From Thermoanaerobaculia bacterium (GTDB lineage Bacteria > Acidobacteriota > Thermoanaerobaculia > UBA5066): a stretch of 64,000 bases of DNA. Positions 27,994 through 45,999 of this stretch are shown one piece after another; position 1 is the first letter of the stretch; each line of letters starts with the position of its first letter. A program made the position numbers and the translations under genes. The notes under the pieces are model-generated. The model did not search any database. It was not told the DNA's origin and was given only the letters and a program-made list of their open reading frames with translations. Where the stretch lies: contig JBBRRY010000017.1 of the NCBI GenBank assembly GCA_038245905.1, positions 1 to 64,000 on the forward strand, read 5' to 3'.

Positions 27994-29475
27994 GTGACTC
28001 TTCGCCTTTACAACACCATGAGCCGCTCGCTCGAGGAGTTTCGTCCCGTCTACCCGGGAAAGATCGGCCTCTACACATGCGGACCCACCGTCTACAACCG
28101 GGTGCACATCGGAAACCTCAGGACATTCGTCTGGGAAGACGTGATGTGCCGCGTCTTTCGCGCCCTCGGCTACGAGACGACCCAGGTGATGAACCTCACG
28201 GACATCGACGACAAGACGATCCGGGGCGCGTTGGCCGCCGGGCTGCCGCTGCGCGCGTTCACGGACCTTCACATCGCGACGTTCTTCGAGGACCTGAAGA
28301 CGCTCGGCGTCGAGCCGGCGGCGCTCTATCCGCGCGCCACGGAGCACATCCCCGAGATGGTCACGATCGTCCAGAAGCTCGCCGCCCGTGGGCACACGTA
28401 CGAGAGCGACGGATCGGTCTGGTTCCGGATCTCGACGTTCCCGGGCTACGGAAGTCTCTCTAAGATCGACCTCACGGCCGTGAAGCGCGGCGCGCGCGTG
28501 GCCGACGACGAGTACGAGAAGGAAGATGTGCGCGACTTCGCGGTATGGAAGGGAGCGAAGGAGGGCGAGCCCGAGTCCGCGACGTGGGCCACGGCGCTTG
28601 GCCGCGGGCGGCCCGGCTGGCACCTCGAGTGCAGCGCCATGGCGATGAAGTACCTCGGCGAAACGCTCGACATCCACACGGGCGCCGTCGACAACATCTT
28701 CCCGCATCACGAGAACGAGATCGCGCAGAGCGAAGGCGCGACCGGGAAACCGTTCGTCCATTACTGGCTCCACGCCGAGCACCTCCTCGTGGACGGCGAG
28801 AAGATGTCGAAGAGCAAGGGGAACTTCTACACGCTTCCCGACCTCCTCGAGAGGGGCTTCTCTCCGCGCGCGATCCGCTACCTCCTCATCTCGGTCCCGT
28901 ATCGGATGAAGCTCAACTTCACCTTCGACGGCCTGAAGGCCGCGACCTCCGCGGTCGAGCGGCTGGAGTCGCTCGACCTGCGGCTCAGGGAAAGAGAGAA
29001 AGAGAAGAACAGTTCTTTGAAAGGGGAAGAGGGGGGGAGAGAGGGATTCGAGGGGCGACTGGCGGAGGCGCGGCGTGCGGTCTTTGCCGCCCTCGAGGAC
29101 GACCTCAACACGGCCGGCGCTCTCGGGGCGCTGTTCTCGTTCGTCAAGGCGACCAACGTCGATCTCGAGGCGGGCCATCTGTCGGCCTCCGACGCAACCG
29201 CGGCGCGCGGTCTTCTCCATGAAGTCGCCGGGAACGTCTTCGGAGTCATTGAAAAGACCGCAGGCGACGATGCGCCCTCTTCACCTTCTCAGAAATCTTC
29301 ATCCGAATCCCCCGAATCCGATGATGCGTGGATCCTGGAGCGCATCGAGGCCCGAAAGGGGGCTAGAAAGGCCCGGGATTTCAAGGCCGCCGACGCGATC
29401 CGCGACGAGCTCCTGGGCAAGGGAGTCATCCTCGAAGACACGCCCCAGGGCGTTCGCTGGAAGAGGAAGCCTTGA
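27994..29475 (+). CDS. cysS: Cysteine--tRNA ligase
   Basis: LYNT, YTCGPTVY, HIGN, GRPGWHLECSAM, KMSKS. Confidence 0.98.
   Translation: MTLRLYNTMSRSLEEFRPVYPGKIGLYTCGPTVYNRVHIGNLRTFVWEDVMCRVFRALGYETTQVMNLTDIDDKTIRGALAAGLPLRAFTDLHIATFFEDLKTLGVEPAALYPRATEHIPEMVTIVQKLAARGHTYESDGSVWFRISTFPGYGSLSKIDLTAVKRGARVADDEYEKEDVRDFAVWKGAKEGEPESATWATALGRGRPGWHLECSAMAMKYLGETLDIHTGAVDNIFPHHENEIAQSEGATGKPFVHYWLHAEHLLVDGEKMSKSKGNFYTLPDLLERGFSPRAIRYLLISVPYRMKLNFTFDGLKAATSAVERLESLDLRLREREKEKNSSLKGEEGGREGFEGRLAEARRAVFAALEDDLNTAGALGALFSFVKATNVDLEAGHLSASDATAARGLLHEVAGNVFGVIEKTAGDDAPSSPSQKSSSESPESDDAWILERIEARKGARKARDFKAADAIRDELLGKGVILEDTPQGVRWKRKP
29003..29300. repeat. Dispersed motif, inverted pair in cysS
   Basis: Reverse AGAAGAACAGTTCTTTGAAAGGGGAAGAGGGG (29003-29034); forward CCCTCTTCACCTTCTCAGAAATCTTC (29275-29300). 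Confidence 0.7.
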
Positions 29476-29510
29476 CAGTGGCGCGCCACTTCGGGTCTAC
29501 TTCCGGAGTC

Positions 29511-29552
29511 ATGATCTTCGTCGCGCGCCACTGGCACGTTCATCACACCTGA
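29511..29552 (+). CDS. Putative His/Trp leader peptide MIFVARHWHVHHT
   Basis: GGAG RBS; ATG ATC TTC GTC GCG CGC CAC TGG CAC GTT CAT CAC ACC TGA; upstream of the aro-his-trp operon. Confidence 0.85.
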   Translation: MIFVARHWHVHHT

Positions 29553-29622
29553 GTCGGCTGCGCCTCGCGCCGCCGGCCCATAGAGGTTCGGAGGCACGCG
29601 GGTTTTCCAACAAGGTCACCCC

Positions 29623-29653
29623 AACCCCTCCGGATCGGAGGGGTTTTCGTTTT
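29623..29653 (+). terminator. Attenuator terminator hairpin
   Basis: AACCCCTCCG-GAT-CGGAGGGGTT followed by TTCGTTTT; upstream CGGAGG (29589-29594) and GGGTT (29600-29604) can pair with its 5' arm. Confidence 0.85.
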
Positions 29654-31214
29654 GGTCCTCACCGCGGAGAAAACACTTCTCGTCGCGTCCCTCGCACCGG
29701 CTTCTAACGCCGAGGCTCTGGGGGGGCGCGCGGCTCTCGCCGACCTGCCTCCGTCGACGGCTGTCGAGCTGCGCCTGGATGCGATGACCGAGGCGCCTGC
29801 GTTCGGCGCGCTGCGCGCGTGCTTCGAAGGCAGAACGCTCATCGCAACCGTTCGATCCAAAGCCGAGGGCGGCGGGTTCCGGGGGAGCGAGGAGGAAGAG
29901 CGGGATTTCCTAGAAGGTGCCCTCTCTGCGGGCTTCGATCTCGCAGACGTTGAATTTCGCCGCGACCTTGGTACTCGCTTCGCCGGAATACCTCCTTCTA
30001 AGAAGATTTCTTCTCTCCACGACCCCGAAGGGGTACCAGCCGACCTCGACAGCGTCGTCTCGAGGATGCTCGCTTCCCCCTCGCGCTTCGTGAAAGTCGC
30101 GGCGACGGCAAACGATTCCGGCGACGCCCGCCGCCTTCTCGAGCTTCAGGCCGCGAACCCAGGGGGGCGCCTCACCGTATTCGGCATGGGCGAGGCCGGG
30201 ATCGCCACGCGCGTCCTCTCGCCCTATCTCGGCGCGGCGCTCGCGTACGGGGCGCTCGTCCCCGGGCGCGCCACGGCACCCGGCCAGCTTCTTGCGCGCG
30301 ACCTCAACGAGATCTACGGCGTCGGCTGCGCGCGGAGCGTCTCGCGGCTCTTCGGGATCCTGGGCGGCGTCGTCTCGCACTCCCTCTCTCCCGCTCTCCA
30401 CAACGCGAATTTCGAGGCTCTCGAAGAGGACGCGCTCTACGTCCCGTTTGCGATGCGGATGCTCGGGAGGGAGCTCGAGCCCCTCGTCGCCTCCCTCGAC
30501 GCGCTCGGCCTTCCTCTCGGGGGCGTCTCGGTGACGATCCCGTTCAAGGAAGAGGCCGCGCTCCTTTCGGGCGCGGCCGAGGGCGGCGAGAGGGCGGTCA
30601 ACACGCTCCTGAGGTCGAGCGCCCCGGGCCTGCCGCTCCAGTGGCGCGCGGAAAACACCGACCGTGCGGCATTCGAGGCCGTGATTGAAGATGCTTCCGA
30701 GAGAGGGAGAACCGAGACGAGCGCGAATGCGCGGGTGGCGATCGTCCTCGGGGCTGGTGGTACGGCACGGGTTGCCGTGGATGTTCTCCGAAAAAGGGGA
30801 TTCGGAGTCTTTCTGGTGAACCGAGGCGAGGAGCGTGGCGAGGCGCTTGCGGCTGCCACGGGCGCCCATTACCTTTCTAATAAATCCTCGGCGCCGTGGC
30901 CCGAGGCTGGAGTCATCGTCAACGCGACGGCCCTCGGGCTTCTCCCGGGGGATCCTCTTCCCTGCGAGCAAAATATTCTCCGCCCCGGGATGCTCGTGAT
31001 CGACGCGCCGTATCGCGCCGGCGGAACAGAGCTCGTCCGGGCGGCGCGCGCAGCGGGCGCGCGCGTCGTAGACGGCCAGACACTGCTCCTGCTTCAGGCC
31101 GCGGGCCAGGCAACGCTCTTCACCGGGCGGCAGACGAGCCCGCGGGATCTGCTCTCGCGTCTCGCGCCGCGCCTTCGCTCCCTGTTTTCGTCCTTCGAGG
31201 AGTTTTCTCCTTGA
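29652..31214 (+). CDS. aroDE: Fused type I 3-dehydroquinate dehydratase / shikimate dehydrogenase
   Basis: VELRLD, IATVRSKAEGG, SLH, APGQ (AroD); HSLSPALHN, SVTIPFK, AVNT, NTD, GAGGTA (AroE). Start uncertain. Confidence 0.9.
   Translation: MVLTAEKTLLVASLAPASNAEALGGRAALADLPPSTAVELRLDAMTEAPAFGALRACFEGRTLIATVRSKAEGGGFRGSEEEERDFLEGALSAGFDLADVEFRRDLGTRFAGIPPSKKISSLHDPEGVPADLDSVVSRMLASPSRFVKVAATANDSGDARRLLELQAANPGGRLTVFGMGEAGIATRVLSPYLGAALAYGALVPGRATAPGQLLARDLNEIYGVGCARSVSRLFGILGGVVSHSLSPALHNANFEALEEDALYVPFAMRMLGRELEPLVASLDALGLPLGGVSVTIPFKEEAALLSGAAEGGERAVNTLLRSSAPGLPLQWRAENTDRAAFEAVIEDASERGRTETSANARVAIVLGAGGTARVAVDVLRKRGFGVFLVNRGEERGEALAAATGAHYLSNKSSAPWPEAGVIVNATALGLLPGDPLPCEQNILRPGMLVIDAPYRAGGTELVRAARAAGARVVDGQTLLLLQAAGQATLFTGRQTSPRDLLSRLAPRLRSLFSSFEEFSP
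29902..30018. repeat. Dispersed motif, inverted pair in the aroD domain
   Basis: Reverse GGGATTTCCTAGAAGGTG (29902-29919); forward CCTCCTTCTAAGAAGATTTCTTCTCTCC (29991-30018). Confidence 0.7.
30779..30889. repeat. Dispersed motif, pair in the aroE domain
   Basis: Degenerate reverse GGATGTTCTCCGAAAAAGGGGA (30779-30800); forward GGCGCCCATTACCTTTCTAATAAATCCTC (30861-30889). Confidence 0.6.
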
Positions 31215-32842
31215 AGATCGAGCGGCCCGACCCGAACCTGCCGCGAGGCGTGCAGGCATTTCTCTTCGACGCGGCCGAGCGCCGCCGGAAGGCGGAAGAC
31301 TCGGTCGTGCGACGGCTTCAGGAGGCCGGTCTGCGTGAGGTGATTCTCCCCGTCCTGGATTTCGCGGCCCCCTATGCCGGCGTGACGGCCGAGGGAGACG
31401 ATCGCCTTTATCGGTTCCTCGACCGGCAGGGGAATACTCTGGCGCTTCGGGCGGACTTCACGCCGATGGCGGCGCGCGTCGTGGCGCCACGGCTCAGCGC
31501 GCTCTCCGGAGCCGTCTCCCTCTTCTACCGCGGAGACGTCGTGCGCGACGAGGAGACTGGTGTCGGGCGCCGGCGCGAGTTCGCGCAGGTCGGCGCAGAG
31601 CGTTACGGCGATGGCCGCCCGGAGGCCGACGGCGAAATGCTCGCGCTGGCTCTCTCCTGCCTCGGAGATCTTCCGGCCGAGCGCCTCAGGCTCACCCTCG
31701 GCTGGTCGGGCCTCCTGGAACGCCTGCTCGCCATACTCGCCCCGGGACTCGAAGTGAACGGCGCGTCCGAACTCGCCGTTGCCTTGTCGGCCGCGCGCGC
31801 GCGGCACATCACGGAGCTGGAGACGCGGCTTTCGACCGCGGGCGCCGCGCCGGCCGTCGCTGCGGAAGCCGCCCGGGCCCTCCTCGTCGGCTTCGACCCC
31901 TCTTCCGATCTCTTCCACTCGACTGCCCTTGCGGGCGCGGCCGCGGAGCTCGCGCGCGCGGTCGCAATTGCGAGGGCCGCCCGGCCCGGTCTCTCGGTCG
32001 TCGTCGACCTTGCCGACACTCCCCAGGCCCCCTATTACACGGGGCTCACGTTCAGCGTGGACGCCGCGAGCGGGGGCGGCACGATTGCCGGAGGCGGACG
32101 GTACGACGGCCTCCTCGGGCGTTTCGGCACGGCGGCGCCCGCGCTCGGCTTCTGTATCGGCCTCGAGGCTCTCGGTGCTGCCGCCGATGTAACCGAGAGA
32201 GACGCGCGCCCTCTCCGAATCGCGGTCGGGAAGGGCCGGCTCCTGCCGCAGGCGCTCGAGGCGCTCGACGCCGGAGGCGCCTCGTTCGGCGAGCCGGACG
32301 GCCGGCGCCTTCTCGTGCTTTCCTCGGACGGCGCGTTCGAGCTGCTTCTCCTCAAGGACGACGACGTCCCGACCTACGTGGCTCACGGTGGCGCCGACCT
32401 CGGGATCGTGGGGAGCGACCGCGTCCTCGAGAGCGGCGAGGACGTGACCTCCCCCGTGGAGCTTCCGTTCGGCGCCTGCCGCCTCTCCCTCATCGGGCGG
32501 GCGGGGGAGCCGTTCCGCCCGAACGGCGCGCCCGTTCGCGTGGGAACGAAGTACCGCCGCCTCGCGGCCCGCTATTTCGATGAGCGGAAGATCGCCCATG
32601 AGATCGTCCCGCTCGCGGGTTCGGTCGAGCTCGCTGCCGCGCTCGGGCTCACGGACGTCGTCGTGGACCTCATCGAATCTGGCTCCACGATGGCCGCGAA
32701 CGGTCTCGCCGAGATCGAGACCATCCTCACGAGCCGCGCGACCCTCGTCCTCGGGCGTTCCGCGCTCATCGCCCGCCGGGCCGAGATCGCGGAGTTCGTC
32801 CAGCGCCTCAGGGCTCATGCGGGCAAGGCGCTGACTTCATGA
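31211..32842 (+). CDS. hisZG: Fused HisZ-HisG(short) ATP phosphoribosyltransferase
   Basis: LPRGVQ, LALRADFT, REFAQVGAE, GGGRYD (HisZ), then RIAVGKGRL, DVPTYV, ADLGIVG, GSVELA, DLIESGST (HisG) in one frame. Confidence 0.92.
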   Translation: MKIERPDPNLPRGVQAFLFDAAERRRKAEDSVVRRLQEAGLREVILPVLDFAAPYAGVTAEGDDRLYRFLDRQGNTLALRADFTPMAARVVAPRLSALSGAVSLFYRGDVVRDEETGVGRRREFAQVGAERYGDGRPEADGEMLALALSCLGDLPAERLRLTLGWSGLLERLLAILAPGLEVNGASELAVALSAARARHITELETRLSTAGAAPAVAAEAARALLVGFDPSSDLFHSTALAGAAAELARAVAIARAARPGLSVVVDLADTPQAPYYTGLTFSVDAASGGGTIAGGGRYDGLLGRFGTAAPALGFCIGLEALGAAADVTERDARPLRIAVGKGRLLPQALEALDAGGASFGEPDGRRLLVLSSDGAFELLLLKDDDVPTYVAHGGADLGIVGSDRVLESGEDVTSPVELPFGACRLSLIGRAGEPFRPNGAPVRVGTKYRRLAARYFDERKIAHEIVPLAGSVELAAALGLTDVVVDLIESGSTMAANGLAEIETILTSRATLVLGRSALIARRAEIAEFVQRLRAHAGKALTS

Positions 32843-34149
32843 TGAAGATCGTCGACGCGGATACGCTTGCGGGCAAGAAGGAGCTGGAGCGGTTGCTAAA
32901 GAGCCGCCGGGGAGCCGCTCCTGACTTCGCGACGCTGAAGCAGGTCCTGCCGATCGTGGAGGATGTTCTGCGAAGAGGGGAGCCTGCGCTCCGGAAATAC
33001 GTGAAGTGCTTCGACCCGTTGCGCGGCGCCCCTTCTTACCCTTCTAAGAAGCTCTTGATCACTCCCCGACGTGAGGAGTCTTCTCGGGTGGATCCGGCGT
33101 TTCAGGCGGCGTTTGTCTTCGCCCGCAAGCGCATCGAGGCTTATCACCGCAAGCAGCTCTCGTCCGTCTCGCCGGGTTTCTCCTTCAAGGACTCTCTCGG
33201 CGTCTCCTTCGTGGAGAGGCCCACGCCGTTCGATTCGGTGGGCGTCTATGTGCCCGGGGGCCGCGCCTTCTATCCGTCCTCGCTTCTCATGGGGGTCGTG
33301 CCCGCGCGCGTCGCGGGCGTCAGGCGAGTCGTCGTCGCGACGCCGCGCGGGGCGTGGGCGTCGAGCCCCGAGCTCCGGTGGGCGGCGGCCGAGCTGGGAG
33401 TCGACGAGGTGCTCCTCGCGGGAGGGGCCCACGGTATCGCCGGCCTCGTGTCCGTCGCGGGCGTCGCGAAGATCGTCGGCCCCGGGAACCGGTTCGTCGC
33501 GGCGGCGAAGCACCTCGTCTCGGGCCTCGTGGCGGTGGACATGCCGGCAGGGCCTTCGGAAGTCGCAATCCTCGCGTCGGCCGATGCGGACCCGGCGCTC
33601 GTGGCGGCGGATCTTCTCGCGCAAGCGGAGCACGATCCCGACGCAAAGTGCTTGCTGTTTACGAGCTCGAGAAGGCTGGCGGACGCCGTTCGATGCGCGG
33701 CGCTCTCGCAGATGGATGCCTTCGAAGAGGATTCTTCTTTGATGGTGATGAGAGCGGCCTTGCGCCGCGGTGGGCGGATCTTTCTATTCAAAGAAATCTC
33801 CCGCGCCGCGTCGGCCTGCGCTGCCGTGTTCGCGGAGCACGTTCAGGTCATGGGCCGGTCTGTCGAGCGCTCGGCGGGTTCTCTCTTTCCCGCTGCCGGA
33901 ACCTTGTTCATTGGCCCGTCGACGCCGACCGCGCTCGGGGACTACGTCCTCGGCCCGAATCACGTACTGCCCACAGGCGGTGCCGCGCGCAGCTTCTCGG
34001 GTCTCTCGGTGCGCGACTTCCTGCGCTGGGGGCGATCGGTCTCGGCCCCCGTGAAGGCGGCCCGCCGCCTCGCGCCCGCGGCAGCGGTCCTGGCGCGATT
34101 CGAAGGTCTCGTCGCCCACGCGAGCGCGCTCGACCGGAGAGTCCGGTGA
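32839..34149 (+). CDS. hisD: Histidinol dehydrogenase
   Basis: GVYVPGG, GPGNRFV, DMPAGPSE, LAQAEH, GPNHVLPT. Confidence 0.96.
   Translation: MMKIVDADTLAGKKELERLLKSRRGAAPDFATLKQVLPIVEDVLRRGEPALRKYVKCFDPLRGAPSYPSKKLLITPRREESSRVDPAFQAAFVFARKRIEAYHRKQLSSVSPGFSFKDSLGVSFVERPTPFDSVGVYVPGGRAFYPSSLLMGVVPARVAGVRRVVVATPRGAWASSPELRWAAAELGVDEVLLAGGAHGIAGLVSVAGVAKIVGPGNRFVAAAKHLVSGLVAVDMPAGPSEVAILASADADPALVAADLLAQAEHDPDAKCLLFTSSRRLADAVRCAALSQMDAFEEDSSLMVMRAALRRGGRIFLFKEISRAASACAAVFAEHVQVMGRSVERSAGSLFPAAGTLFIGPSTPTALGDYVLGPNHVLPTGGAARSFSGLSVRDFLRWGRSVSAPVKAARRLAPAAAVLARFEGLVAHASALDRRVR
32958..33056. repeat. Dispersed motif, pair in the 5' part of hisD
   Basis: Degenerate reverse GGAGGATGTTCTGCGAAGAGGGGA (32958-32981); forward GGCGCCCCTTCTTACCCTTCTAAGAAGCTCTT (33025-33056). 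Confidence 0.65.
33724..33800. repeat. Dispersed motif, pair in the 3' part of hisD
   Basis: Reverse GAAGAGGATTCTTCTTTGATGGTGATGAGAG (33724-33754); forward TTTCTATTCAAAGAAATCTC (33781-33800). Confidence 0.55.
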
Positions 34150-35213
34150 CCGGCCGGCCCATCCCGGTCCGCGAGGAGATCCGGTCGCTCAGGGCCTATC
34201 GCCTCGAGTCCGAGGACGCCCCCCCTCTCCGAGCGAAGCTGGACTTCAACGAGTCGCCGTTCGACGTGCCCGAGGAAATCCGCGCGGAGGTCCTCGCGCG
34301 CCTCGCGGCGAAGAGATGGGGCCGCTACCCCGAGTTCGGCGCGCCGCGTCTGAAGAGGGCGGTCGCCGAGGCGATTGGCCGGCGGCCCGAAGAGATCGTG
34401 GTCGGCAACGGGTCTGGTGAGGTCCTTCTCGCGGCGGTCTCCGTCTTCGCGGGGGGCGGCTCTCTCGTCCTTCCGACGCCCACGTTCTCGCTCTACGGAC
34501 AGATCGCGGCGATCGCGGCGGCCCGCGTCGTGGACGTGCCGCGCACGGGGCCGGATTTCGAGCTCGTCGAGGACGCATTTCTCGCCGCGGTGTCCCGGCC
34601 GCACGCCGTTCCTCTCGTCTGCTCGCCGAACAACCCGACGGGCGGCGTCGTACGGCGGGAATTCCTGGAGAGGCTGCTCACGGCCGCGCCCGTCGTGCTC
34701 CTCGATCAGGCCTACGTGGATTTCGCGGGGCCCGGCGACGACGGCCTCTCGCTCCTCGATGCCTATCCGAACCTCGTCGTCTTCCGGACGCTCTCGAAGG
34801 CGTACGCGGCCGCGGGCTTCCGGATCGGGTACGCAGTCGCGCCGCCGGAGCTCGCGCGGGAGATCGAGAAGGCCGTCCTGCCGTTCAGCGTCGACCTCGC
34901 GGCCGAGGAGTTGGCGGTCGCCGTCCTCGGGCGTCCAGAGGTTGCGCGGGCCCACCTGGGCAAGATCGTGGCCGAGAGGTTGCGCGTGGCCGCGGCGCTC
35001 ACGGCGGCCGGCTGCCTCGTGGCTTCGTCGTCCGCAAATTTTCTCTTCGTGCGTCCGCCGGGCGGCCAGGCGGAGCCGGTCCGCCGGGCGCTTCTCGACA
35101 GGGGAATCCTCGTGCGCGAAATGACCGCGGCGGCGCCCGGGCGCCTCCGTGTTTCGATCGGATCCCGTGAGGAGAACGATCTTTTCCTCGAAGCGCTTCG
35201 GGAGGTGTTATGA
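34146..35213 (+). CDS. hisC: Histidinol-phosphate aminotransferase
   Basis: KLDFNESP, GNGSGE, SPNNPTG, DQAY, RTLSKAYAAAGFRIG. Confidence 0.96.
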   Translation: MTGRPIPVREEIRSLRAYRLESEDAPPLRAKLDFNESPFDVPEEIRAEVLARLAAKRWGRYPEFGAPRLKRAVAEAIGRRPEEIVVGNGSGEVLLAAVSVFAGGGSLVLPTPTFSLYGQIAAIAAARVVDVPRTGPDFELVEDAFLAAVSRPHAVPLVCSPNNPTGGVVRREFLERLLTAAPVVLLDQAYVDFAGPGDDGLSLLDAYPNLVVFRTLSKAYAAAGFRIGYAVAPPELAREIEKAVLPFSVDLAAEELAVAVLGRPEVARAHLGKIVAERLRVAAALTAAGCLVASSSANFLFVRPPGGQAEPVRRALLDRGILVREMTAAAPGRLRVSIGSREENDLFLEALREVL

Positions 35214-35806
35214 GCAGGGTCGGAACAGTCGAGCGGAAGACGAAGGAGACGGACGTGTCCCTGTCGCTGACGCTCGACGGAGCGGGGCGAACGGACGTGA
35301 CTACGCCCGTCGGGTTTCTCTCCCACATGCTCGAGACGATCGCGAAGCACGCGCGCGTCGATCTCACGGTCCGGGCGTCGGGCGACGTGCACATCGACGC
35401 CCACCACACGGTCGAGGACGTCGGCCTCGCCTTCGGCGAGGCGCTGGCTCAGGCCCTCGGGTCGCGCGCGGGAATCGAGCGCTTCGGCGAGAGCCTCGTG
35501 CCGCTCGACGAGGCTCTCGCGCGTTCGGTCGTCGACCTCTCTGGCCGGCCGTACATCGTGTTCGAGTCTCCCATCGACAAAGAGCTCCTCCTTGTCACGA
35601 ACGACTTCCCGTTCGCGCTCGTCGAAGAGTTCTGGAAGTCCGCGGCGTTTCGCGGCAAGTTCAACCTCCATGTGGACGTGATCCGCGCCCGGAACGGCCA
35701 TCACGCGGCCGAGGCTGTCTTCAAGTCGGCCGCGCGCGCGCTGCGCCAGGCCATGACGATCACGGGCTCAGAGGTTCTCTCGACGAAAGGGACGCTGACG
35801 GCATGA
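35210..35806 (+). CDS. hisB: Imidazoleglycerol-phosphate dehydratase
   Basis: RKTKET, DAHHTVED, NGHHAAEAVFK, STKG. Confidence 0.97.
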   Translation: MSRVGTVERKTKETDVSLSLTLDGAGRTDVTTPVGFLSHMLETIAKHARVDLTVRASGDVHIDAHHTVEDVGLAFGEALAQALGSRAGIERFGESLVPLDEALARSVVDLSGRPYIVFESPIDKELLLVTNDFPFALVEEFWKSAAFRGKFNLHVDVIRARNGHHAAEAVFKSAARALRQAMTITGSEVLSTKGTLTA

Positions 35807-36432
35807 GCGAAGCCCCCGCGCCGGTGGTCACGCTCGTGGACTACGGGGTCGGTAACACGGCTTCCGTCATCCGCGCCTTCCGCCGGCTCGGCGCCGAGGT
35901 GGACTTCACGGCCGATCTCGACCGGGTCGCGGCCGCCCGCCGCCTCGTGCTGCCCGGCGTCGCCGCGTTCGCCCCGGCGATGAACCGGCTGCTCGAGACC
36001 GGCCTCGAATCGGCCGTGCGGGCAGCCGTGAAGCGGGGAGGGCGTCTGCTCGGGCTCTGCCTGGGTTTTCAGCTTCTCTTCGAAGAAAGCGAGGAGCACG
36101 GCGTTCACCGGGGGCTCGGCCTCGTGTCCGGCCGTATCCGGCCCTTCCCGGGCAGCGTGCGGTCGCCTCACGTGGGCTGGAACCGGCTCCTCACTCGCCG
36201 GCCGGACGGTTTCGTCGCGGGGCTTCAGGACCGGAGCTTCGTCTACTTCGTCCATTCCTTCAGACCCGAGGGCGCCGAAGCCGCGGACGTCGCGGCGGCC
36301 TGCGACCACGGCGGAGAGTTCCCGGCGATCGTGCAGCGCGGGAACGTCTGGGGTTGTCAGTTCCACCCGGAAAAGTCGTCGGAGAACGGCCGGCTCCTGC
36401 TCTCGAATTTTCTCGAGGGGGATCCGGCGTGA
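35803..36432 (+). CDS. hisH: IGP synthase glutaminase subunit
   Basis: DYGVGN, GLCLGFQ, PHVGWN, YFVHS, QFHPEKS. Confidence 0.97.
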   Translation: MSEAPAPVVTLVDYGVGNTASVIRAFRRLGAEVDFTADLDRVAAARRLVLPGVAAFAPAMNRLLETGLESAVRAAVKRGGRLLGLCLGFQLLFEESEEHGVHRGLGLVSGRIRPFPGSVRSPHVGWNRLLTRRPDGFVAGLQDRSFVYFVHSFRPEGAEAADVAAACDHGGEFPAIVQRGNVWGCQFHPEKSSENGRLLLSNFLEGDPA

Positions 36433-37214
36433 ACGGCGGCCGGCTTGCGCTGTGGCCCGCGATCGACCTCATGGGCGGCCGCGTGGTCCGGCTGCTCAGG
36501 GGCAAGCGCGAGGCCGTGACGTTCTACGACGAGCAGCCTTCCGAGGCCGCGAGGCGATTTGCGGCGGAAGGCGCCGACGGCATCCACGTGGTGGATCTCG
36601 ATGCGGCATTCGGAACGGGGGACAACGAAAGCAATCGGAAAGAGATTGAAGAAATACTTTCTGTTTCGGAGGCTTCCGGGGTGGCAGTGCAAGTCGGGGG
36701 AGGGCTGCGCGCCACCGCGGCCGTCGAAGATTTCTTAGAAGGGGTGAGTACCGCTAGGGCAGTTGTCGGCAGCCTGCCGTTCCTCGACCGCCCCGCGTTC
36801 ACACACCTTCTAAGAAAATCTTCCTCTTCCGTCTCGGCCCGCATCGTGGTGGCCCTCGATTGCAAGGATGGCCGTCCGACCGTCCGCGGCTGGACCGAGG
36901 ACGCGGGAGCGGGTGACGCCGTGTCCGTGGCACGCGAGATGTGGGGCCTCGGCGTCCGGGCGCTCCTCGTCACGGACGTCGCGTGCGACGGGGCCATGAC
37001 GGGCCCGAATCTCGAACTCCTCGCCGGAGTGCGCGCCGTCTTTCCGGGCGAGATCCTGGCGTCCGGCGGCATGCGAGGAGAACGGGATCTCGATCCGGTC
37101 GACCGCACGCTCGCGGGTGGGCCCCGCGGCGCCATCTTCGGCCGCGCATTGCACGGCGGAGTCACCACCATGGCGAAGCTCAAGGCGGCGCGCGACCTCG
37201 GGAGGCCTTCATGA
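36429..37214 (+). CDS. hisA: ProFAR isomerase
   Basis: [40 protein letters not shown]. Confidence 0.95.
36726..36823. repeat. Dispersed motif, best inverted pair (hisA)
   Basis: GAAGATTTCTTAGAAGG (36726-36742), 63 nt, CCTTCTAAGAAAATCTTC (36806-36823); complementary apart from one extra A. Confidence 0.8.
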
Positions 37215-38644
37215 CCCTCGCCGTCCGCGTCATCCCGTGTCTGGACGTCTCGGAAGGCCGCGTCGTAAAGGGCGTCTCGTTCGAAAATCTCCGCGACGCG
37301 GGAGATCCGGTCGAAGCGGCCACGCGCTACGAGGCCGAGGGGGCCGACGAGGTGGCTTTCCTCGACATCGCGGCCGCGCACGAGAAGCGAGGGACGTTCG
37401 TGGGGCTCGTGGGGCGCGTGGCCGAGGCGCTGTCTATTCCCTTCACCGTCGGCGGCGGCGTGCGTTCCGTGGAGGACGCGGACGCGCTCCTCAAGGCCGG
37501 GGCCGACCGGGTCACGGTGAACACAGCCGCGGTCGAGGACCCTTCCCTCATCACGCGCCTCTCCGAGCGGTTCGGAGCGCAGTGCGTCGTCGTCGCAATC
37601 GACGGAAAGAGGCTGCGCGATCCGAACGGCCTCGCGGTGATGCGCGTGACGACTCACGGGGGGAGGCGGCCCGTAGACCGCACGGTCACATCCTGGGCGG
37701 CCGCGGCGGCGGCAGCAGGAGCCGGCGAGATTCTGCTCACGTCCGTCGACGCGGACGGCACCCAGGCGGGGTTCGATCTCGAAATGCTCCGCGCCGTTCG
37801 CTCCGTCGTGGATGTGCCGGTCGTGGCCTCGGGAGGCGCGGGCCGGCTCGAAGACTTCGCGAAGGCGGTTCTCATCGGGGGCGCCGACGCCGTGCTCGCG
37901 GCGTCCGTCTTCCACGACCGCGTCTTCACGATTGGCGCGGTCAAGGAGGCGATGCGGCGTGCCGGCCTCGTCGTGCGCCCCGCTCCGGCCCGCGCACGTA
38001 CGCTGCTTCCCCGCTACGACGAGAACGGGCTCGTGCCCGTGATCATGCGGGACGTCGCGACCGGCAGGGTCCTCACGCTCGCGTGGGCGAACGCGGACGC
38101 GATCGCAAAGACCCGCGAGACCGGCCTCGCGCACTTCTACAGCCGGTCCCGGAAGTCCCTGTGGCGGAAGGGGGAGACGTCGGGGAACATCCAGCACGTC
38201 GCGGGAATTTCCCTCGACTGCGACGACGATGCCGTGCTGTACGACGTGCGCCCGTCGGGTCCCGCCTGCCACACGGGAGCGGAATCGTGCTTCACGCGCG
38301 TGGAGAGCTTCGACTCCTTCGACGTCCATGGCGCAGTCGCCGACGGGCTCGACCTCACCGAACTGTTCGCCGTCGTGAGGAGCCGGAAGGAATCGCCGGT
38401 CGCCGGCTCGTATACGAGCAAGCTCTTTGACGACGGAATAGCGCGCATCGCACAGAAAGTGGGGGAGGAAGCCGTCGAGACGGCGCTCGCCTCGGTGACA
38501 GGCGACGGCAATGCGCTCGCGGGAGAGGCGGCCGATCTTCTTTATCACCTCGCGGTCCTGCTCACGGCGCGCGGCGTCGCACCGGGCGACGTCGCCGCGA
38601 AACTCGCTGAGCGCCGAGGCGCCGCGAGGCGCGAGAAGCCGTGA
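37211..38644 (+). CDS. hisFIE: Fused HisF-HisI-HisE
   Basis: [24 protein letters not shown] (HisF); [23 protein letters not shown] (HisI); [23 protein letters not shown] (HisE). Confidence 0.95.
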
Positions 38645-40017
38645 GGAATCTCCACCGCCTCGTCGTGGTCGAGAGGCCGGCGGACCTTACGACGCCCGTT
38701 GCGCTCATGAAGGGCCTTCTTGCCGGCGAGGGGCCGTGCTTCCTTCTCGAATCGGTCGAGGGGGGCGACCGCGTGGCGCGGTGGTCCTTCCTCGGGGCGT
38801 CGCCCTCGGGAGAGATCTCCGGCCAGGATACGGATCCGTTCGCCGCCCTCCGCGCGCTGCCTCGCGGCGAAATGGCGGCAGGCGGGGACGACCTCCCTCC
38901 CTTCACGGGCGGAGCCGTCGGTTACGCGGGCTACGACGCCGTGAGGCGCCTCGAACGCCTCCCCGAAACGAACCCGGACCCGATCGGGCTGCCGGACGCG
39001 TGGTTCGGGATCTTCGACGCGGTCATCGCGTTCGACCATGTGCGGCACCGCCTTCTCTTCGTGACGCATGCCGAAGAGGGCCGGGAGGAAGAGGCGCGCG
39101 CTCGTCTGCACGCGCTCGAGGCGCGCACCCTCACCCGAGGTGGTGAAACGCGCACAGAGACTCTCTCTTCTCTTACCTTCAAAGAATCTTCTCCTCGTTC
39201 CTCCTACATCGCGGCGGTCGAGCGCGCGAAGGAGCACATTCGGGCGGGCGACGTGTTTCAGGTCGTCCTCTCGCGCCGCTGGTCCGCACCCTTCGACGGC
39301 GACGCCTTCGCTGTCTACCGCGCGCTCCGGTCCATCAGCCCGTCGCCGTACCAGTACTTCCTGAGGACGCCGCACGGCGCGATCTTCGGAGCCTCGCCCG
39401 AGCGACTCGTGCGCGTCGCGGCGGCCCTCGGCGGCGCGGCCGTGGAGACGATTCCTCTCGCCGGCACCCGCGCGCGCGGCGCGACGCGCGAAGAGGACCT
39501 CGCCCTCGAGAAGGAGCTCCTCGCGGACCCGAAGGAGCGCGCGGAGCACGTGATGCTCGTGGATCTCGGGAGAAACGACCTCGGCCGAGTCGCGAAGGCC
39601 GGGAGCGTGCGCGTGGAAGATTTTTTCCGCGTCGAGCGCTATTCCCACGTGATGCACATCGCCTCGCGCGTGACCGGCGTTCTCGCCGAGGGGAAGGACG
39701 CCGTCGACGCTCTCGTGGCGACGTTTCCGGCCGGGACGCTTACGGGAGCGCCGAAAATACGCGCGATGGAGATCATCGAGGACCTCGAGCCGGTGCGGCG
39801 CGGCGCCTACGGCGGCACCGTGGGCTACCTCGACTTCGCCGGAAACCTCGACGTGGCTATCGCGATCCGCACGGCGGTCGTCGCGAACGGCATTCTCCAC
39901 GTGCAGGCCGGCGCCGGCATCGTCGCCGACTCCGACCCCGAGGCCGAAGCGACCGAGTGCGAGAACAAGGCCCGTGCTCTCATGGGCGCCGTTGCGAAGG
40001 CGGGGACGTACCGATGA
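38641..40017 (+). CDS. trpE: Anthranilate synthase component I
   Basis: [49 protein letters not shown]. Confidence 0.95.
39161..39191 (+). repeat. Dispersed motif, single copy in trpE
   Basis: CTCTCTCTTCTCTTACCTTCAAAGAATCTTC. Confidence 0.7.
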
Positions 40018-40583
40018 TCCTCGTCGTCGACAACTACGACTCCTTCACGTACAACCTCGTCCAGATCCTCTCCATGTTCGACGGCGACGTACGCGTCGTG
40101 CGAAACGACGCGCTCAGCGTGGACGCGATCCTCGCTGCGAAGCCGGACCGGCTCGTCGTGTCTCCGGGGCCGGGCCGGCCGGAAGACGCGGGAGTCTCGT
40201 GCGAGCTGATCCGCCGGAACGAGCGGATCCCTCTCTTAGGAGTCTGCCTCGGGCATCAGGCCCTCGGGGCCGTCTTCGGCGGAACGGTCTCCCGCGCGCC
40301 GGTCCTCATGCACGGCAAGACTTCGGAAATCTCGCACGAGGGAGCGGGCCTTTTCGCGGGGCTCCCGAGCCCGTTCACGGCCACGCGGTACCACTCCCTC
40401 GTCGTGGAGCGGGACTCGGTTCCCGCGGCGCTCCGGATCACCGCCACGACCGATGACGGGCTCGTGATGGGCCTCGCCCATCGGACCCGCCCTCTCGTCG
40501 GCGTGCAGTTCCATCCCGAGTCGATCCTGACGAAAGAGGGGGAGCGGCTCCTGAAGAACTTCGTGGACGGGCGGCTCGCGTGA
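40014..40583 (+). CDS. trpG: Anthranilate synthase component II
   Basis: DNYDSFTYNL, SPGPG, GVCLGHQ, QFHPES. Confidence 0.96.
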   Translation: MILVVDNYDSFTYNLVQILSMFDGDVRVVRNDALSVDAILAAKPDRLVVSPGPGRPEDAGVSCELIRRNERIPLLGVCLGHQALGAVFGGTVSRAPVLMHGKTSEISHEGAGLFAGLPSPFTATRYHSLVVERDSVPAALRITATTDDGLVMGLAHRTRPLVGVQFHPESILTKEGERLLKNFVDGRLA

Positions 40584-41620
40584 CGACGGCCGCCCATCGC
40601 GCGCTCTGGACGGTGGCGCGTGGCGCGCATCTGACCCGCGCGGAAGCGCGGGCAGCCGTGACGGCGCTTCTCGACGAGGACATCCCCGGGACGATCGTGG
40701 CCGGCCTCCTCGCGGCGCTGGCGGCCCGGGGCGAGACGATCGAGGTCGTGGCGGGCGCCGTGGATGTCCTCCGGGCGCGGGCGGCGCGGCCTCCCGTGGA
40801 CGCGGCACTGGCCGCCCGCTCCATCGACGTCTGCGGAACCGGGGGCGACGGGTTCGGCACCTTCAATGTCTCGACGGCCGCCGCGTTCGTGGTCGCGGGC
40901 GCAGGGACGCCCGTCGCCAAACACGGGAACCGTGCCGTCTCCTCGGCATGCGGCTCGGCCGACGTCCTCGCAGCGCTTGGTGTCGAAATCGAGATGTCTC
41001 CCGTCCGGGCCGCCGAGGCGCTCGCGCGCGCGAACGTCACTTTCTTCTTCGCGCCGCTCTATCACCCCTCGATGAAGAAGGTAGGCCCGATCCGGCGCGA
41101 GCTGGGAGTCCGCACGGTATTCAACCTCGCCGGACCCCTTTCGAATCCGCTCGGCGTGACGCGGCAGATCGTGGGGGTGGATCATCCCGAGCGGGTGCCC
41201 GTGATCGCGGGAGCCCTCGCGGAGCTCAACACCGAGCGCGCGCTGGTGTTCTCGCACGAGACCGGCGGCGACGAGCTGCTGCCCTTCGGGCGCACGTTCG
41301 CGGCAGACGTGCGCGGGACCCATGTCGAGCTTCTCGAGCTCTCTGCCCCGGATTTCGGCCTCGAGGAGGGCGAGGGGGCCGATCCCTTGAAGGGCGGGGA
41401 CGCCCACACGAACGCGGAGATCCTGCGCGCGATCCTGGGAGGCTTCCGGCGCGACGCGCGGGACGTCGTCCTGATGAACGCTGCAGCTGCGCTCGTCGTC
41501 TCGGGACTGGCCGCTGATTACCGGGAAGGCGTCACGCGGGCGGAACACGCCATCGACGAGGGGAGTGCCCGGGAGGCGCTCGATGCGCTCGTGAGAATCT
41601 CGAACGGGGTCCCGTCCTAA
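40580..41620 (+). CDS. trpD: Anthranilate phosphoribosyltransferase
   Basis: DVCGTGGDG, NVST, KHGNR, GSADVL, RTVFNL. Confidence 0.97.
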   Translation: MTTAAHRALWTVARGAHLTRAEARAAVTALLDEDIPGTIVAGLLAALAARGETIEVVAGAVDVLRARAARPPVDAALAARSIDVCGTGGDGFGTFNVSTAAAFVVAGAGTPVAKHGNRAVSSACGSADVLAALGVEIEMSPVRAAEALARANVTFFFAPLYHPSMKKVGPIRRELGVRTVFNLAGPLSNPLGVTRQIVGVDHPERVPVIAGALAELNTERALVFSHETGGDELLPFGRTFAADVRGTHVELLELSAPDFGLEEGEGADPLKGGDAHTNAEILRAILGGFRRDARDVVLMNAAAALVVSGLAADYREGVTRAEHAIDEGSAREALDALVRISNGVPS

Positions 41621-41635
41621 GAGGAGTAAGAGGGA

Positions 41636-41885
41636 GAGAAATTTCTTAGAAAGGGTAAGAGGAAGAGGGGATGGGCGGATCGATTCTTGGGGAGATTCTC
41701 GCCGCCAAGCGGCGCCGGATCGCCCGTGGGGAGTTCACGGCCGAGACGGGCGCGCGCGCACGCACCAGCGGGGGTAGGGGCGCGCAGCCCGCGGCGCGGC
41801 CCGACGGCGCGCGCTTCGCCGCGGCCCTTAGGTCTCACCCTTCTCTTTCTTCCTCCTCCATTTCTAAGCAAGTCTTTCCTCTTCC
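41636..41885. repeat. Dispersed motif, pair spanning the trpD-trpCF spacer and trpC
   Basis: Reverse GAGAAATTTCTTAGAAAGGGTAAGAGG (41636-41662); forward CCTCCTCCATTTCTAAGCAAGTCTTTCCTCTTCC (41852-41885). Confidence 0.7.
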
Positions 41886-44395: not shown

Positions 44396-45210
44396 GCACT
44401 GTGAATCGCATCGGGCGAGCCTTCGCGACGGCCCGGGCCTCCGGACGGGCGGCGCTGATCGTCTTCGTGGAGGCGGGCGATCCCGATCTCGAGACGACCC
44501 GCCGGCTTCTTCCCGCGCTCGCGGAGGCGGGAGCCGACGTAATCGAGCTCGGGATCCCGTTCAGCGATCCGCTTGCGGACGGACCGGTCATCCAGCGCGC
44601 GAGCGAACGCGCCCTCGCGGCGGGGACGACGCTCCCGGCCGCGCTCTCCGTCCTCGCGGAGCTTCGGGCCGAGCGCTTCGTGGCGCCCGTCGTGATCTTC
44701 AGCTACGCGAATCCGGTACTCGCGATGGGGGAGGCCGAGTTCGCTCTCCGGGCGGCGCAGGCCGGCGCGGACGGAGTTCTCGTGACCGACCTCCCACCGG
44801 AAGAAGGCCGCCCCTTCGCGTCGGTCTTGAAGAGCGCGAAGCTCGATCCCGTCTACCTTGTCGCGCCGACGTCGCCGGACGAGCGCATCCGCAGGGCCGG
44901 GTCGCTCTCGCGCGGCTTCCTCTACGTCGTGTCGCGGGCCGGCATCACGGGCGCGCGCACGGCCCTGCCCGAGGGGCTCCCCGCCCTCGTGTCTCGCGTG
45001 CGGCAGCAGGTGCCGCGTCTTCCGATCGCGGTGGGCTTCGGCCTCTCGACGCCCGAGCAGGTCCGCGAGGTCGCTGCTTTGGCGGACGGCGTCGTCGTGG
45101 GGAGCGCGATCGTGGCCGCAATGGAAGCCGCCCGCGCGGCCGGCAGGGACCCCGTCGAGGCGGCGGCCGCTCTCGTCCGTTCGCTCGCCGCGGCCACGCC
45201 GAAAGGCTGA
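44392..45210 (+). CDS. trpA: Tryptophan synthase alpha chain
   Basis: [33 protein letters not shown]. Confidence 0.98.
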
Positions 45211-45211
45211 C

Positions 45212-45979: not shown

Positions 45980-45999
45980 AACACGTTACGGGGATTCGG

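What the first reader, a model, noticed from the sequence alone, without database searches (positions are those of the whole stretch)
29472..29653. Candidate joint histidine + tryptophan attenuator (leader peptide MIFVARHWHVHHT)
Seen: after cysS there is TTGACA (29472), a GGAG RBS and a 13-codon ORF (29511-29552) with four His codons around one Trp codon, plus one Phe. A strong terminator follows (29623-29653). CGGAGG (29589) and GGGTT (29600) can sequester its 5' arm as an antiterminator, and GCCTC near 29562 can pair with GAGGC (29591) as a protector. Established: hisL and trpL attenuators each sense one amino acid, and multivalent leaders exist (thrL, ilvL). Inference: one leader reads both His-tRNA and Trp-tRNA to control the merged aroDE-his-trp operon, an OR gate for two PRPP-consuming pathways. 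I do not know of a described His/Trp dual leader.
Basis: partly seen in the sequence, partly recalled or inferred. Interest (0 to 1): 0.82.

Follow-up and report, generated by a model that had tools for sequence, protein, structure and literature searches.

The report
Joint histidine–tryptophan leader-peptide attenuator
A 13-codon leader with four histidine codons around one tryptophan codon, followed by switchable RNA hairpins and a terminator, most likely lets one merged operon for histidine and tryptophan synthesis switch on when either amino acid runs short.

Summary
Window 29511-29552 encodes MIFVARHWHVHHT*. A 10-bp terminator with a U tract (29623-29653) follows, directly ahead of a 14-gene operon, aroDE-hisZG-D-C-B-H-A-F/IE-trpE-G-D-CF-B-A (29652-45210).

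Comparative data support the dual-sensor reading. I tabulated 74 related Thermoanaerobaculia loci.
- In 46 of 46 loci where his genes follow aroDE, the leader has at least 3 His and at least 1 Trp codon.
- In 28 of 28 loci where trpE follows aroDE directly, the leader has 1-3 Trp and at most 1 His codon.
- Three genomes with a stand-alone his operon carry a homologous His-only leader (RHPHHHEVNG*).
- On the aroDE tree these counts reduce to three independent contrasts, all concordant.

The terminator, the antiterminator and a protector hairpin are conserved, with compensatory changes.

- The GGAG "RBS" is not conserved, and the uORF is probably leaderless.
- The protector is 29567-79/29585-97, not GCCTC/GAGGC.

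Limits:
- No RNA or starvation data exist.
- Ribosome-masked folding gives only a weak switch for the window's own sequence.

Verdict: a new variant of a known kind, a multivalent attenuator spanning two unrelated pathways. I found no published description of one.

The parts
29472..29477 (+). -35-like hexamer TTGACA of the leader promoter
   Evidence: TTGAC lies 35-40 nt upstream of the uORF start in 69 of 74 related leaders, and exactly 39 nt in 44. The tool's strict promoter scan did not call it.
29496..29501 (+). -10-like hexamer TCTACT, ending 10 nt before the uORF ATG. This implies a transcript start at or within a few nt of the ATG (leaderless uORF; inferred).
   Evidence: A hexamer sits at the same distance in relatives (TCTACT, TCCAAT, TTCAAT, CAGAAT, TAGGCT, TAACGT, GATGAT). 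None of 74 leaders has an SD-like motif at -16..-4.
29511..29552 (+). Leader peptide uORF, MIFVARHWHVHHT*
   Evidence: R-H-W-H-x-H-H is conserved in 24 genus members, with synonymous and non-synonymous changes around it. It is the only such ORF among 10,899 in the genome.
29529..29546 (+). Regulatory codons: His7, Trp8, His9, (Val10), His11, His12
   Evidence: His codons track the his genes, and Trp codons track the trp genes.
29522..29534 (+). Candidate region A (uORF codons 4-8), able to pair with 29588-29600 and hide the antiterminator strand when no ribosome covers it
   Evidence: 85.6% of cells are paired against 34-58% when slid, but only 1 pair shows compensatory change. Weakly supported.
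29553..29577 (+). Hairpin H1 just after the stop codon (29553-63 with 29567-77)
   Evidence: -17.7 kcal/mol, z -2.56; helices 1-2 are 92% and 81% paired, and 6 pairs show compensatory change. RNAalifold predicts it independently.
29567..29597 (+). Protector (anti-antiterminator) hairpin H2: the 3' arm of H1 (29567-79) pairs with 29585-97 and hides CGGAGG
   Evidence: 89.8% paired, 3 pairs with compensatory change. (-14.7 kcal/mol, z -1.9). It is weaker in the window than in relatives because of T29588 and A29596.
29588..29633 (+). Antiterminator H3: 29588-29594 pairs with the terminator 5' arm 29627-29633 (an optional extension is 29600-04 with 29623-27)
   Evidence: core 97.1% paired; GC to AU in 8 rows and AU to GC in 9 rows. 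RNAalifold predicts it independently. (-19.6 kcal/mol, z -2.71).
29623..29653 (+). Intrinsic terminator H4 (stem 29623-32 with 29636-45) plus U tract
   Evidence: A terminal hairpin (tail fold -15.5 to -30.8 kcal/mol) precedes the U tract in all 74 relatives. A compensatory C-G to U-A change is seen in L014.
29637..29654 (+). aroDE ribosome-binding site GGAGG (29637-41), inside the terminator 3' arm, and the TTG start (29652-54), inside the U tract
   Evidence: One relative (L153) has ATG at the equivalent position. SD sequestration by the terminator is inferred.
29652..45210 (+). Controlled operon: aroDE, hisZ-hisG, hisD, hisC, hisB, hisH, hisA, hisF-hisIE, trpE, trpG, trpD, trpCF, trpB, trpA
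   Evidence: Pfam; tblastn layout. Genes overlap or lie at most 50 nt apart. hisD, trpD and trpA are single-copy in the genome.

Best explanation
This is a ribosome-mediated (leader-peptide) transcription attenuator that senses two amino acids, histidine and tryptophan.

Layout. A promoter (TTGACA-N18-TCTACT) probably starts the transcript at or next to the AUG of a 13-codon uORF. Four overlapping helices follow:
- H1, a hairpin right after the stop codon.
- H2, a protector formed by the 3' arm of H1 and the CGGAGG strand.
- H3, the antiterminator, formed by the CGGAGG strand and the terminator 5' arm.
- H4, the terminator.

Proposed switch (inferred):
- When charged tRNA-His or tRNA-Trp is scarce, the ribosome stalls at codons 7-12. 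H1 stays intact and the uORF segment 29522-34 is covered. The CGGAGG strand is then free to pair with the terminator 5' arm, and RNA polymerase reads on into aroDE-his-trp.
[quoted passage not shown] The freed 3' arm, and/or the re-exposed uORF segment, captures CGGAGG. The terminator then forms.
- Because the aroDE Shine-Dalgarno lies in the terminator 3' arm, the same switch may also gate translation.

What is shown and what is inferred:
- Shown: the anatomy, its conservation, the covariation, and the co-variation of leader codons with operon content.
- Inferred: the transcript start, the ribosome-position logic, and the response to starvation.
For: 1. Anatomy is at the stated coordinates. 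The four helices are of similar strength: -17.7, -14.7, -19.6 and -17.9 kcal/mol.

2. Leader codons follow operon content in 74 loci, i.e. the window plus 73 other genomes of the same order.
- hisZG next to aroDE: 46 loci, all 46 with at least 3 His and at least 1 Trp.
- trpE next to aroDE: 28 loci, all 28 with 0-1 His and 1-3 Trp.

3. Full operons were checked.
- 6 of 6 genus members have aroDE-his-trp.
- 4 of 4 his-positive genomes of the sister family have it too.
- 6 of 6 sister genomes with Trp-only leaders have aroDE-trp with no his genes between.

4. Three genomes with a separate his operon have a homologous leader with 4 His and 0 Trp, (V/M)S..ARHPHHHEVNG*. Two of the three have an aroDE-trp leader that could be read, and it is Trp-only..WWRLEKRR*. 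The third has aroDE at its contig start, so that leader was not seen.

5. One genome without hisD (G033) nests inside a his-positive clade (96*). Its leader has lost all four His codons (T-HHWHH-EVDR against G-NGWRN-EVNR). TGG and the downstream codons are kept.

6. Structure on 40 family members:
- H1+H3: 84.4% of cells paired against 32-48% when slid. 55 compensatory cells against 21.1 in shuffles (0 of 500 reach it).
- H2+H4: 87.8% against 40-66%. 23 compensatory cells against 7.9 (0 of 500).
- RNAalifold on its own predicts H1, inner H2 and H3.

7. Ribosome-masked folds show a clean switch in typical relatives (L007, L016). The family mean that the terminator 5' arm is held upstream is 0.71 for A-site codons -8..-3 and 0.51-0.59 for -2..stop.

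8. hisD, trpD and trpA are single-copy, and trpE overlaps the hisIE stop. This leader is therefore the only leader available to both pathways.

9. The element travels with aroDE, not with cysS. At least 17 loci keep it with no cysS match in the ~1.5 kb of upstream flank held.
Against: - No RNA run holds the locus, so there is no transcript start, 3' end or starvation response.
- The 46/46 and 28/28 counts are phylogenetically clustered. The aroDE tree needs only 3 changes of state. All 3 independent pairs agree, but the sign test gives p = 0.25.
- For the window's own sequence the masked-fold switch is weak: 0.60 when stalled, 0.36-0.39 at codons -2/-1, and 0.60 again at the stop.
- Full-length equilibrium folding keeps the terminator regardless of ribosome position in most sequences.
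- The whole leader folds no better than shuffles (z -0.93).
- The strict promoter scan calls nothing here.
- Covariation controls can be exceeded by related sequences alone, and the tested structures were derived from the window sequence.
- With only one Trp codon in this genus, sensitivity to Trp may be low.
Confidence: 0.85

Rival explanations
1. A histidine-only attenuator. On this reading the single TGG codon is a relic of an ancestral Trp leader, or is kept for RNA pairing (it lies in the segment 29522-34 that can pair with 29588-29600), and Trp limitation has no regulatory effect.
For: There is only one Trp codon against four His codons in this genus. The CAC-TGG codons lie in a segment that is complementary to the antiterminator strand in 85.6% of cells. 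Modelling of the E. coli trp and his attenuators attributes the his attenuator's higher sensitivity to its larger number and fraction of regulatory codons (PMC1183508, passages read).
Against: TGG is present in 46 of 46 merged-operon leaders, across two families with different flanking codons. It rises to 2-3 copies in other genera (LWHWHH, WHWHWHH). It is absent from the 3 stand-alone his-operon leaders (RHPHHH). The trp genes have no other leader and are single-copy.
Confidence: 0.07
2. Control is mainly translational. On this reading the hairpin at 29623-45 acts by hiding the aroDE Shine-Dalgarno (29637-41), and uORF translation or stalling opens it. Transcription termination would be minor.
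For: GGAGG lies in the 3' arm of the hairpin and the TTG start lies in the U tract. This arrangement is conserved in relatives.
Against: The U tract right after the stem is conserved in both families, as expected for an intrinsic terminator. Its conservation may, however, partly reflect the start codon embedded in it. The two modes do not exclude each other.
Confidence: 0.06
3. The hairpin is simply the cysS terminator, and the short ORF is a chance ORF in an intergenic spacer.
For: The hairpin lies 148 nt after the cysS stop. The generic scan finds as many terminator-like sites in the operon as in shuffles: 9 against 10.0.
Against: A conserved promoter-like element sits between cysS and the uORF. 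The uORF, helices and terminator stay attached to aroDE in at least 17 loci with no cysS match in the ~1.5 kb of upstream flank held. The codon content follows the downstream genes. Only 1 of 10,899 short ORFs has this composition.
Confidence: 0.01

Closest known systems
hisL, the his operon attenuator of Salmonella and E. coli (leader-peptide attenuation with a chain of alternative helices A:B, B:C, C:D, D:E, E:F; recalled from textbook knowledge)
   Same: A short leader with a run of His codons. A chain of overlapping helices in which every second helix forms. The last helix is an intrinsic terminator. A ribosome that reaches the stop codon flips the chain to the terminating set.
   Different: No sequence or structure match to any Rfam leader family. 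The His run is interrupted by Trp codon(s). The controlled operon also holds aroDE and all the trp genes. The uORF is probably leaderless. The phylum is Acidobacteriota.
trpL, the trp operon attenuators (E. coli; Actinobacteria, PMC1262725, passages read; Deinococcus deserti trpEGD leader, PMC4007540, passages read)
   Same: Trp codons in a short leader ahead of a terminator and trp genes. Sister lineages of this very element are ordinary Trp leaders (..WWWREATR*) in front of aroDE-trpEGD(CF)BA.
   Different: Here only one Trp codon remains, embedded among four His codons, and 7.4 kb of his genes lie between aroDE and trpE.
Multivalent leaders thrL (Thr, Ile), ilvL (Leu, Val, Ile) and ivbL (Val, Leu) (recalled)
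   Same: One leader peptide carries regulatory codons for more than one amino acid, so limitation of any of them relieves termination.
   Different: In those cases the amino acids come from one branched pathway that shares enzymes. Here two biosynthetically separate pathways, plus a shikimate-pathway gene, are joined. I found no His/Trp leader in print.
Leaderless leader peptides: 14 predicted in Deinococcus deserti (PMC4007540, passages read) and polycysteine leaderless sORF attenuators in mycobacteria (bioRxiv 10.1101/834739; search listing and start of abstract only)
   Same: The uORF seems to start at the 5' end of the transcript. There is no Shine-Dalgarno, and the distance from the -10-like hexamer to the ATG is fixed.
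   Different: The transcript start is inferred here, not mapped.
Bacillus subtilis aromatic supraoperon, with hisC inside and trp genes under TRAP control (recalled; PMC1173090 seen only in a search listing)
   Same: It is a precedent for linking histidine and aromatic amino-acid genes in one transcription unit.
   Different: The mechanism differs (an RNA-binding protein, not a leader peptide), and only one his gene is involved there.

Membership tests
Ribosome-mediated leader-peptide transcription attenuators | Short ORF upstream of the operon, enriched in codons for the operon's end products | tested here: met
   4 His and 1 Trp in 13 codons, ahead of the his and trp genes. It is the only such ORF among 10,899 short ORFs in the genome.
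Ribosome-mediated leader-peptide transcription attenuators | Intrinsic terminator between the leader ORF and the first structural gene | tested here: met
   Stem 29623-45 plus U tract. -17.9 kcal/mol, and 0 of 200 shuffles fold as well. A terminal hairpin before the U tract is present in 74 of 74 relatives.
Ribosome-mediated leader-peptide transcription attenuators | Antiterminator helix mutually exclusive with the terminator, conserved in relatives | tested here: met
   The core is 97.1% paired, with GC/AU exchanges in 8-9 rows. RNAalifold predicts it without guidance.
Ribosome-mediated leader-peptide transcription attenuators | Choice between the two foldings depends on where the ribosome stands on the leader | tested here: inconclusive
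   Masked folds give a clean switch in L007 and L016. The family mean is 0.71 against 0.51-0.59. The switch is weak for the window itself, and there is none at full-length equilibrium. The masks are crude and no kinetics were modelled.
Ribosome-mediated leader-peptide transcription attenuators | Regulatory codons match the pathway controlled, across relatives | tested here: met
   46 of 46 and 28 of 28 loci. The leader of the stand-alone his operon is His-only in 3 of 3 genomes. 3 of 3 independent contrasts agree.
Ribosome-mediated leader-peptide transcription attenuators | Read-through rises when the cognate amino acid or charged tRNA is limiting | not testable with these tools
   The organism is an uncultured MAG, and no RNA run is listed for the locus.
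Rfam leader families (His_leader, Trp_leader, Thr_leader and the like) and T-box | Match to the family covariance model | tested here: not met
   cmscan of 27000-32000 at E up to 10 gave 7 matches. All had E of 4 or more, all were far below gathering score, and none was a leader or T-box family.
Leaderless leader peptides (Deinococcus/mycobacterial type) | Transcription start at or within about 1 nt of the uORF start codon | tested here: inconclusive
   Only promoter geometry and the lack of an SD support it. No 5'-end data exist.

The most novel reading that the evidence does not exclude
The element is an evolvable, modular attenuator whose input specificity is rewritten codon by codon as the operon's content changes.

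States seen within one bacterial order:
- merged aroDE-his-trp operon: interleaved His/Trp leader (HWHxHH, WHWHH, WHWHWHH, HHWHH)
- his block lost: all His codons replaced, Trp kept
- his operon split off: His-only copy of the same leader
- DAHP synthase added after trpA: Trp/Tyr leader (WYWYW)

On this reading the mixed leader works as a true two-input OR gate. It co-induces a shikimate step and two PRPP-consuming pathways. The His:Trp codon ratio (4:1, 3:2, 4:3) would tune the relative sensitivity to each amino acid.
Probability: 0.5. Interest if true: 0.78.

Novelty: new variant of a known kind. Interest (0 to 1): 0.66.

Why it matters
- Leader-peptide attenuation is a textbook mechanism, but known multivalent leaders combine amino acids of one branched pathway. 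This one joins two separate pathways under a single leader, in a little-studied, uncultured lineage (Thermoanaerobaculia, Acidobacteriota).
- Close relatives provide a ready-made series of natural codon swaps: Trp-only, His-only, His+Trp and Trp+Tyr leaders on one homologous RNA scaffold. That makes it directly testable how leader codon content sets regulatory specificity and sensitivity.
- It also shows that leader codon composition can be used to predict what an operon responds to in organisms that cannot be grown.
- It flags probable histidine auxotrophy in most members of the two sister families.

Tried and rejected
- Rfam at permissive thresholds found no known leader, T-box or riboswitch.
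- The look-up of sequencing runs listed no RNA holder. There is therefore no expression evidence either way, and read laying was not used.
- Full-length equilibrium folding with ribosome masks did not separate stalled from non-stalled states in most sequences. I then folded transcripts truncated before the terminator 3' arm. That gave the expected direction, but only a modest effect, and a weak one for the window itself.
- The exact-pattern scan of 185,579 species genomes returned 105 stretches.
  - 23 encode the short RHWHxHH ORF, and 21 of those also matched my terminator regex.
  - The titles shown for these are Thermoanaerobaculia or Acidobacteriota MAGs. Titles of 2 of the 23 were beyond the 80 rows listed.
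  - The other 82 are chance matches. Two are Polynucleobacter hits; one was checked and lies antisense inside a coding gene.
- A crude scan of the window's own genome looked for a short ORF rich in one residue followed by a perfect-stem terminator. It gave 32 rows, many of them nested duplicates. This leader was the only convincing case. Two other rows were checked and are C-terminal tails of longer ORFs. The scan is too strict to say that no other attenuators exist.

Rows dropped before the 74-locus table:
- L008 (contig end, no leader region)
- L171 (aroDE at contig start)
- L169, L175 and L176 (duplicates of G053; L172 was used)
- L173, L174 and L177 (weak paralogue matches)
- L179 and L183 (unpublished genomes G146 and G152)
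- matches for which no locus was issued

Three rows (L024, L025, L172) were dropped from the aroDE tree because the open frame was under 400 aa.

Unpublished genomes: the tallies include G025 and G030, and the tally includes G025, G146 and G152. No leader sequence, table row or tree row comes from them.

Papers I could not see that may bear on the novelty claim:
- the supplementary tables of PMC4007540 (its list of 14 leader peptides)
- Lopatovskaya et al. 2010
- Vitreschak et al. 2004 (recalled; not in the library)
Full report
**1. What is in the sequence**

cysS (Pfam tRNA-synt_1e, 27865-29475) ends at 29475. The spacer after it holds these features:
- TTGACA at 29472-77.
- A 13-codon ORF, 29511-29552, reading MIFVARHWHVHHT*.
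- A hairpin directly after the stop codon.
- The strand CGGAGG at 29589-94.
- A 10-bp hairpin, 29623-45, followed by TTTTCGTTTTGG.

The terminator scan calls that last hairpin (10 pairs, 7 G-C, loop of 3). Alone it folds at -17.9 kcal/mol, and 0 of 200 shuffles fold as well.

The next ORF starts with TTG at 29652, inside the U tract. It is a fused type I dehydroquinase / shikimate dehydrogenase (aroDE). Behind it, overlapping or at most 50 nt apart, lie hisZ-hisG, hisD, hisC, hisB, hisH, hisA, hisF-hisIE, trpE, trpG, trpD, trpCF, trpB and trpA, ending at 45210 (Pfam; layout).

hisD, trpD and trpA are single-copy in the 3.8-Mb assembly. trpE overlaps the hisIE stop. Both pathways therefore depend on whatever controls transcription entering aroDE.

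Of 10,899 ATG-started ORFs of 8-25 codons in the genome, only this one has at least 4 His and at least 1 Trp. Rfam has no family for it.

**2. Relatives: the leader codons follow the operon content**

Record titles of exact-pattern matches place the element in Thermoanaerobaculia (Acidobacteriota) MAGs.

I collected the region upstream of aroDE from the window and 73 other genomes of the same order. For each I tabulated the leader peptide and the gene that follows aroDE.

| Gene after aroDE | Loci | Leader content |
|---|---|---|
| hisZG | 46 (40 from the window's family f1, 6 from sister family f2) | all 46 have at least 3 His and at least 1 Trp |
| trpE | 28 (26 from f2, 2 from f3) | all 28 have 0-1 His and 1-3 Trp |

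- Merged-operon leaders include RHWHVHH and RHWHSHH (window's genus), LWHWHH, RWHWHH, WHWHWHH and PWHGHH (other f1 genera), and THHWHHEVNR (f2).
- The commonest Trp-only leader is ..WWWREATR*.

Longer fetches confirm the full operons:
- 6 of 6 genus members have aroDE-his-trp.
- 4 of 4 his-positive f2 genomes have it.
- 6 of 6 genomes with Trp-only leaders have aroDE-trpEGD(CF)BA with no his genes between.

The Pfam hisD family was found in 57 of 62 f1 genomes, 9 of 81 f2 genomes and 1 of 7 f3 genomes. It was found in 14 of 14 control genomes.

Three f2 genomes keep a separate hisZ-G-D-C-B-H-A-F-IE operon on another contig.
- Its leader sits on the same scaffold: a TTGAC promoter, a hairpin over the stop codon, and a terminator.
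- It reads ..ARHPHHHEVNG*, with four His and no Trp.
- The aroDE-trp leader could be read in two of these genomes and is ..WWRLEKRR*. In the third, aroDE lies at the contig start.

One genome without hisD (G033, 97% complete) nests inside a his-positive clade (96*).
- Its leader differs from its neighbours' exactly at the four His codons (T-HHWHH-EVDR against G-NGWRN-EVNR).
- TGG and the following codons are kept.

**3. How independent is this?**

Not 74-fold. On an aroDE tree of 71 rows, the state "his genes follow" needs 3 changes, and so does "His-rich leader". All 3 independent pairs go the same way. With three pairs a sign test cannot go below p = 0.25.

A HisZ tree puts the f2 merged and f2 stand-alone copies in one clade (100*), apart from f1. 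The stand-alone copies nest next to one merged copy (95*).

Together with the identical gene order in f1 and f2, this suggests three steps. This order of events is inference, because the trees are unrooted.
- An old merged operon.
- Later deletions of the his block.
- One fission of the operon.

**4. RNA structure**

On an alignment of 40 f1 leaders I counted two mutually exclusive sets of helices.

| Set | Helices (window coordinates) | Cells paired | Slid controls | Compensatory cells | Shuffle mean |
|---|---|---|---|---|---|
| A | H1 (29553-63 / 29567-77) + antiterminator H3 (29588-93 and 29600-04 with 29623-33) | 84.4% | 32-48% | 55 | 21.1 (0 of 500 reach it) |
| B | protector H2 (29567-79 / 29585-97) + terminator H4 | 87.8% | 40-66% | 23 | 7.9 (0 of 500 reach it) |

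- The H3 core is 97.1% paired, with GC to AU in 8 rows and AU to GC in 9 rows.
- RNAalifold, given no structure, returns H1, the inner part of H2 and H3. 7 of its 21 pairs show compensatory change.
- A fifth pairing, uORF codons 4-8 (29522-34) with 29588-29600, is possible in 85.6% of cells. It has almost no covariation, so I treat it as a candidate only.
- In the window the four helices fold at -17.7, -14.7, -19.6 and -17.9 kcal/mol.
- The window's H2 is weaker than in relatives, because of T29588 and A29596 where most relatives have C and G.

**5. Mechanism**

The geometry fits a his-type chain of helices.
- A ribosome whose A site is on codons 7-12 covers roughly 29514-29556. H1 stays folded and 29522-34 stays covered. 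CGGAGG is then free to take the terminator 5' arm, which gives read-through.
- A ribosome at the stop codon covers the 5' arm of H1. The 3' arm, or the re-exposed uORF segment, takes CGGAGG, and the terminator forms.

Masked folding supports the direction only moderately.
- With transcripts cut before the terminator 3' arm, typical relatives (L007, L016) switch cleanly.
- The f1 mean probability that the terminator 5' arm is held upstream falls from 0.71 (codons -8..-3) to 0.53, 0.51 and 0.59 (codons -2, -1, stop).
- The window itself goes 0.60, then 0.36-0.39, then back to 0.60.
- At full-length equilibrium the terminator wins in most sequences whatever the mask.

These are equilibrium calculations of a kinetic process.

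**6. Transcript start and translation of aroDE**

- TTGAC lies 35-40 nt before the uORF start in 69 of 74 leaders.
- A -10-like hexamer ends 10 nt before the start.
- No leader has an SD-like motif at -16..-4.

The window's GGAG is therefore incidental, and the uORF is probably translated from a leaderless or nearly leaderless mRNA. Such leader peptides have been reported in Deinococcus deserti (PMC4007540, passages read). The strict promoter scan does not call this site.

The aroDE Shine-Dalgarno (29637-41) lies in the terminator 3' arm. The same switch could therefore also gate translation (inference).

**7. Comparison with what is known, and novelty**

It works like hisL and trpL and is multivalent like thrL and ilvL. 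It matches no Rfam leader model, and it combines amino acids of two separate pathways.

Eight full-text searches found no description of a His/Trp leader or of this operon. Older Russian-school surveys and supplementary tables could not be seen.

I file it as a new variant of a known kind. The attraction is the natural series of Trp-only, His-only, His+Trp and Trp+Tyr leaders on one scaffold.

**8. Verdict**

- Confidence in a dual His/Trp ribosome-mediated attenuator is 0.85.
- Interest is 0.66.

Noticed in passing
L139 (G028) 212-364 and 8186-9526; L140 (G036) 180-336: In the third family the homologous leader alternates Trp and Tyr codons (RWYWYWSDTR*, SWYWYNEATR*). The operon there is aroDE-trpEGD(CF)BA followed by a DAHP synthase (Pfam DAHP_synth_1 plus the ferredoxin-like domain). 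This may be a Trp/Tyr dual leader.
   Followed up: partly
Sister families f2 and f3: The hisD Pfam family was not found in 72 of 81 f2 genomes or in 6 of 7 f3 genomes sampled. Several of these are 96-99% complete and in 1-5 contigs. It was found in 14 of 14 control genomes. Most members of these families may be histidine auxotrophs. These tallies include the unpublished genomes G025 and G030.
   Followed up: partly
L200 about 4190-4640(-), L201 200-660(+), L202 about 2880-3340(-): The stand-alone his operon in three f2 genomes has a His-only leader (..ARHPHHHEVNG*). It sits on the same promoter, hairpin and terminator scaffold as the aroDE leader, so it is a paralogous copy of the attenuator within one genome.
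   Followed up: yes
window 31211-32842 and 37220-38644: Two gene fusions occur in this genus: hisZ-hisG (tRNA-synt_His plus HisG domains in one ORF) and hisF-hisI-hisE (His_biosynth plus PRA-CH plus PRA-PH). In family f2 the same pieces give separate tblastn segments.
   Followed up: no
window 29477-29490 and 29521-29534: The spacer between the -35 and -10 elements holds a palindrome (GTGGCGCGCCAC) that is also complementary to uORF codons 4-8. It surfaced as a spurious mir-275 hit on the minus strand. The spacer sequence varies among relatives, so it is probably incidental.
   Followed up: partly
window 45210-46000: About 790 nt lie between trpA and the rodZ-like gene (46000-46827). The only ORF tested there (44858-45976) has no Pfam match. 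In f3 a DAHP synthase occupies the corresponding position.
   Followed up: no
L032 83-104, L036 1293-1314(-): Polynucleobacter contigs matched the leader pattern and give a short ORF ..SLRHWHAHH... In L036 it lies antisense inside a 300-aa coding ORF, so it is a chance match.
   Followed up: yes
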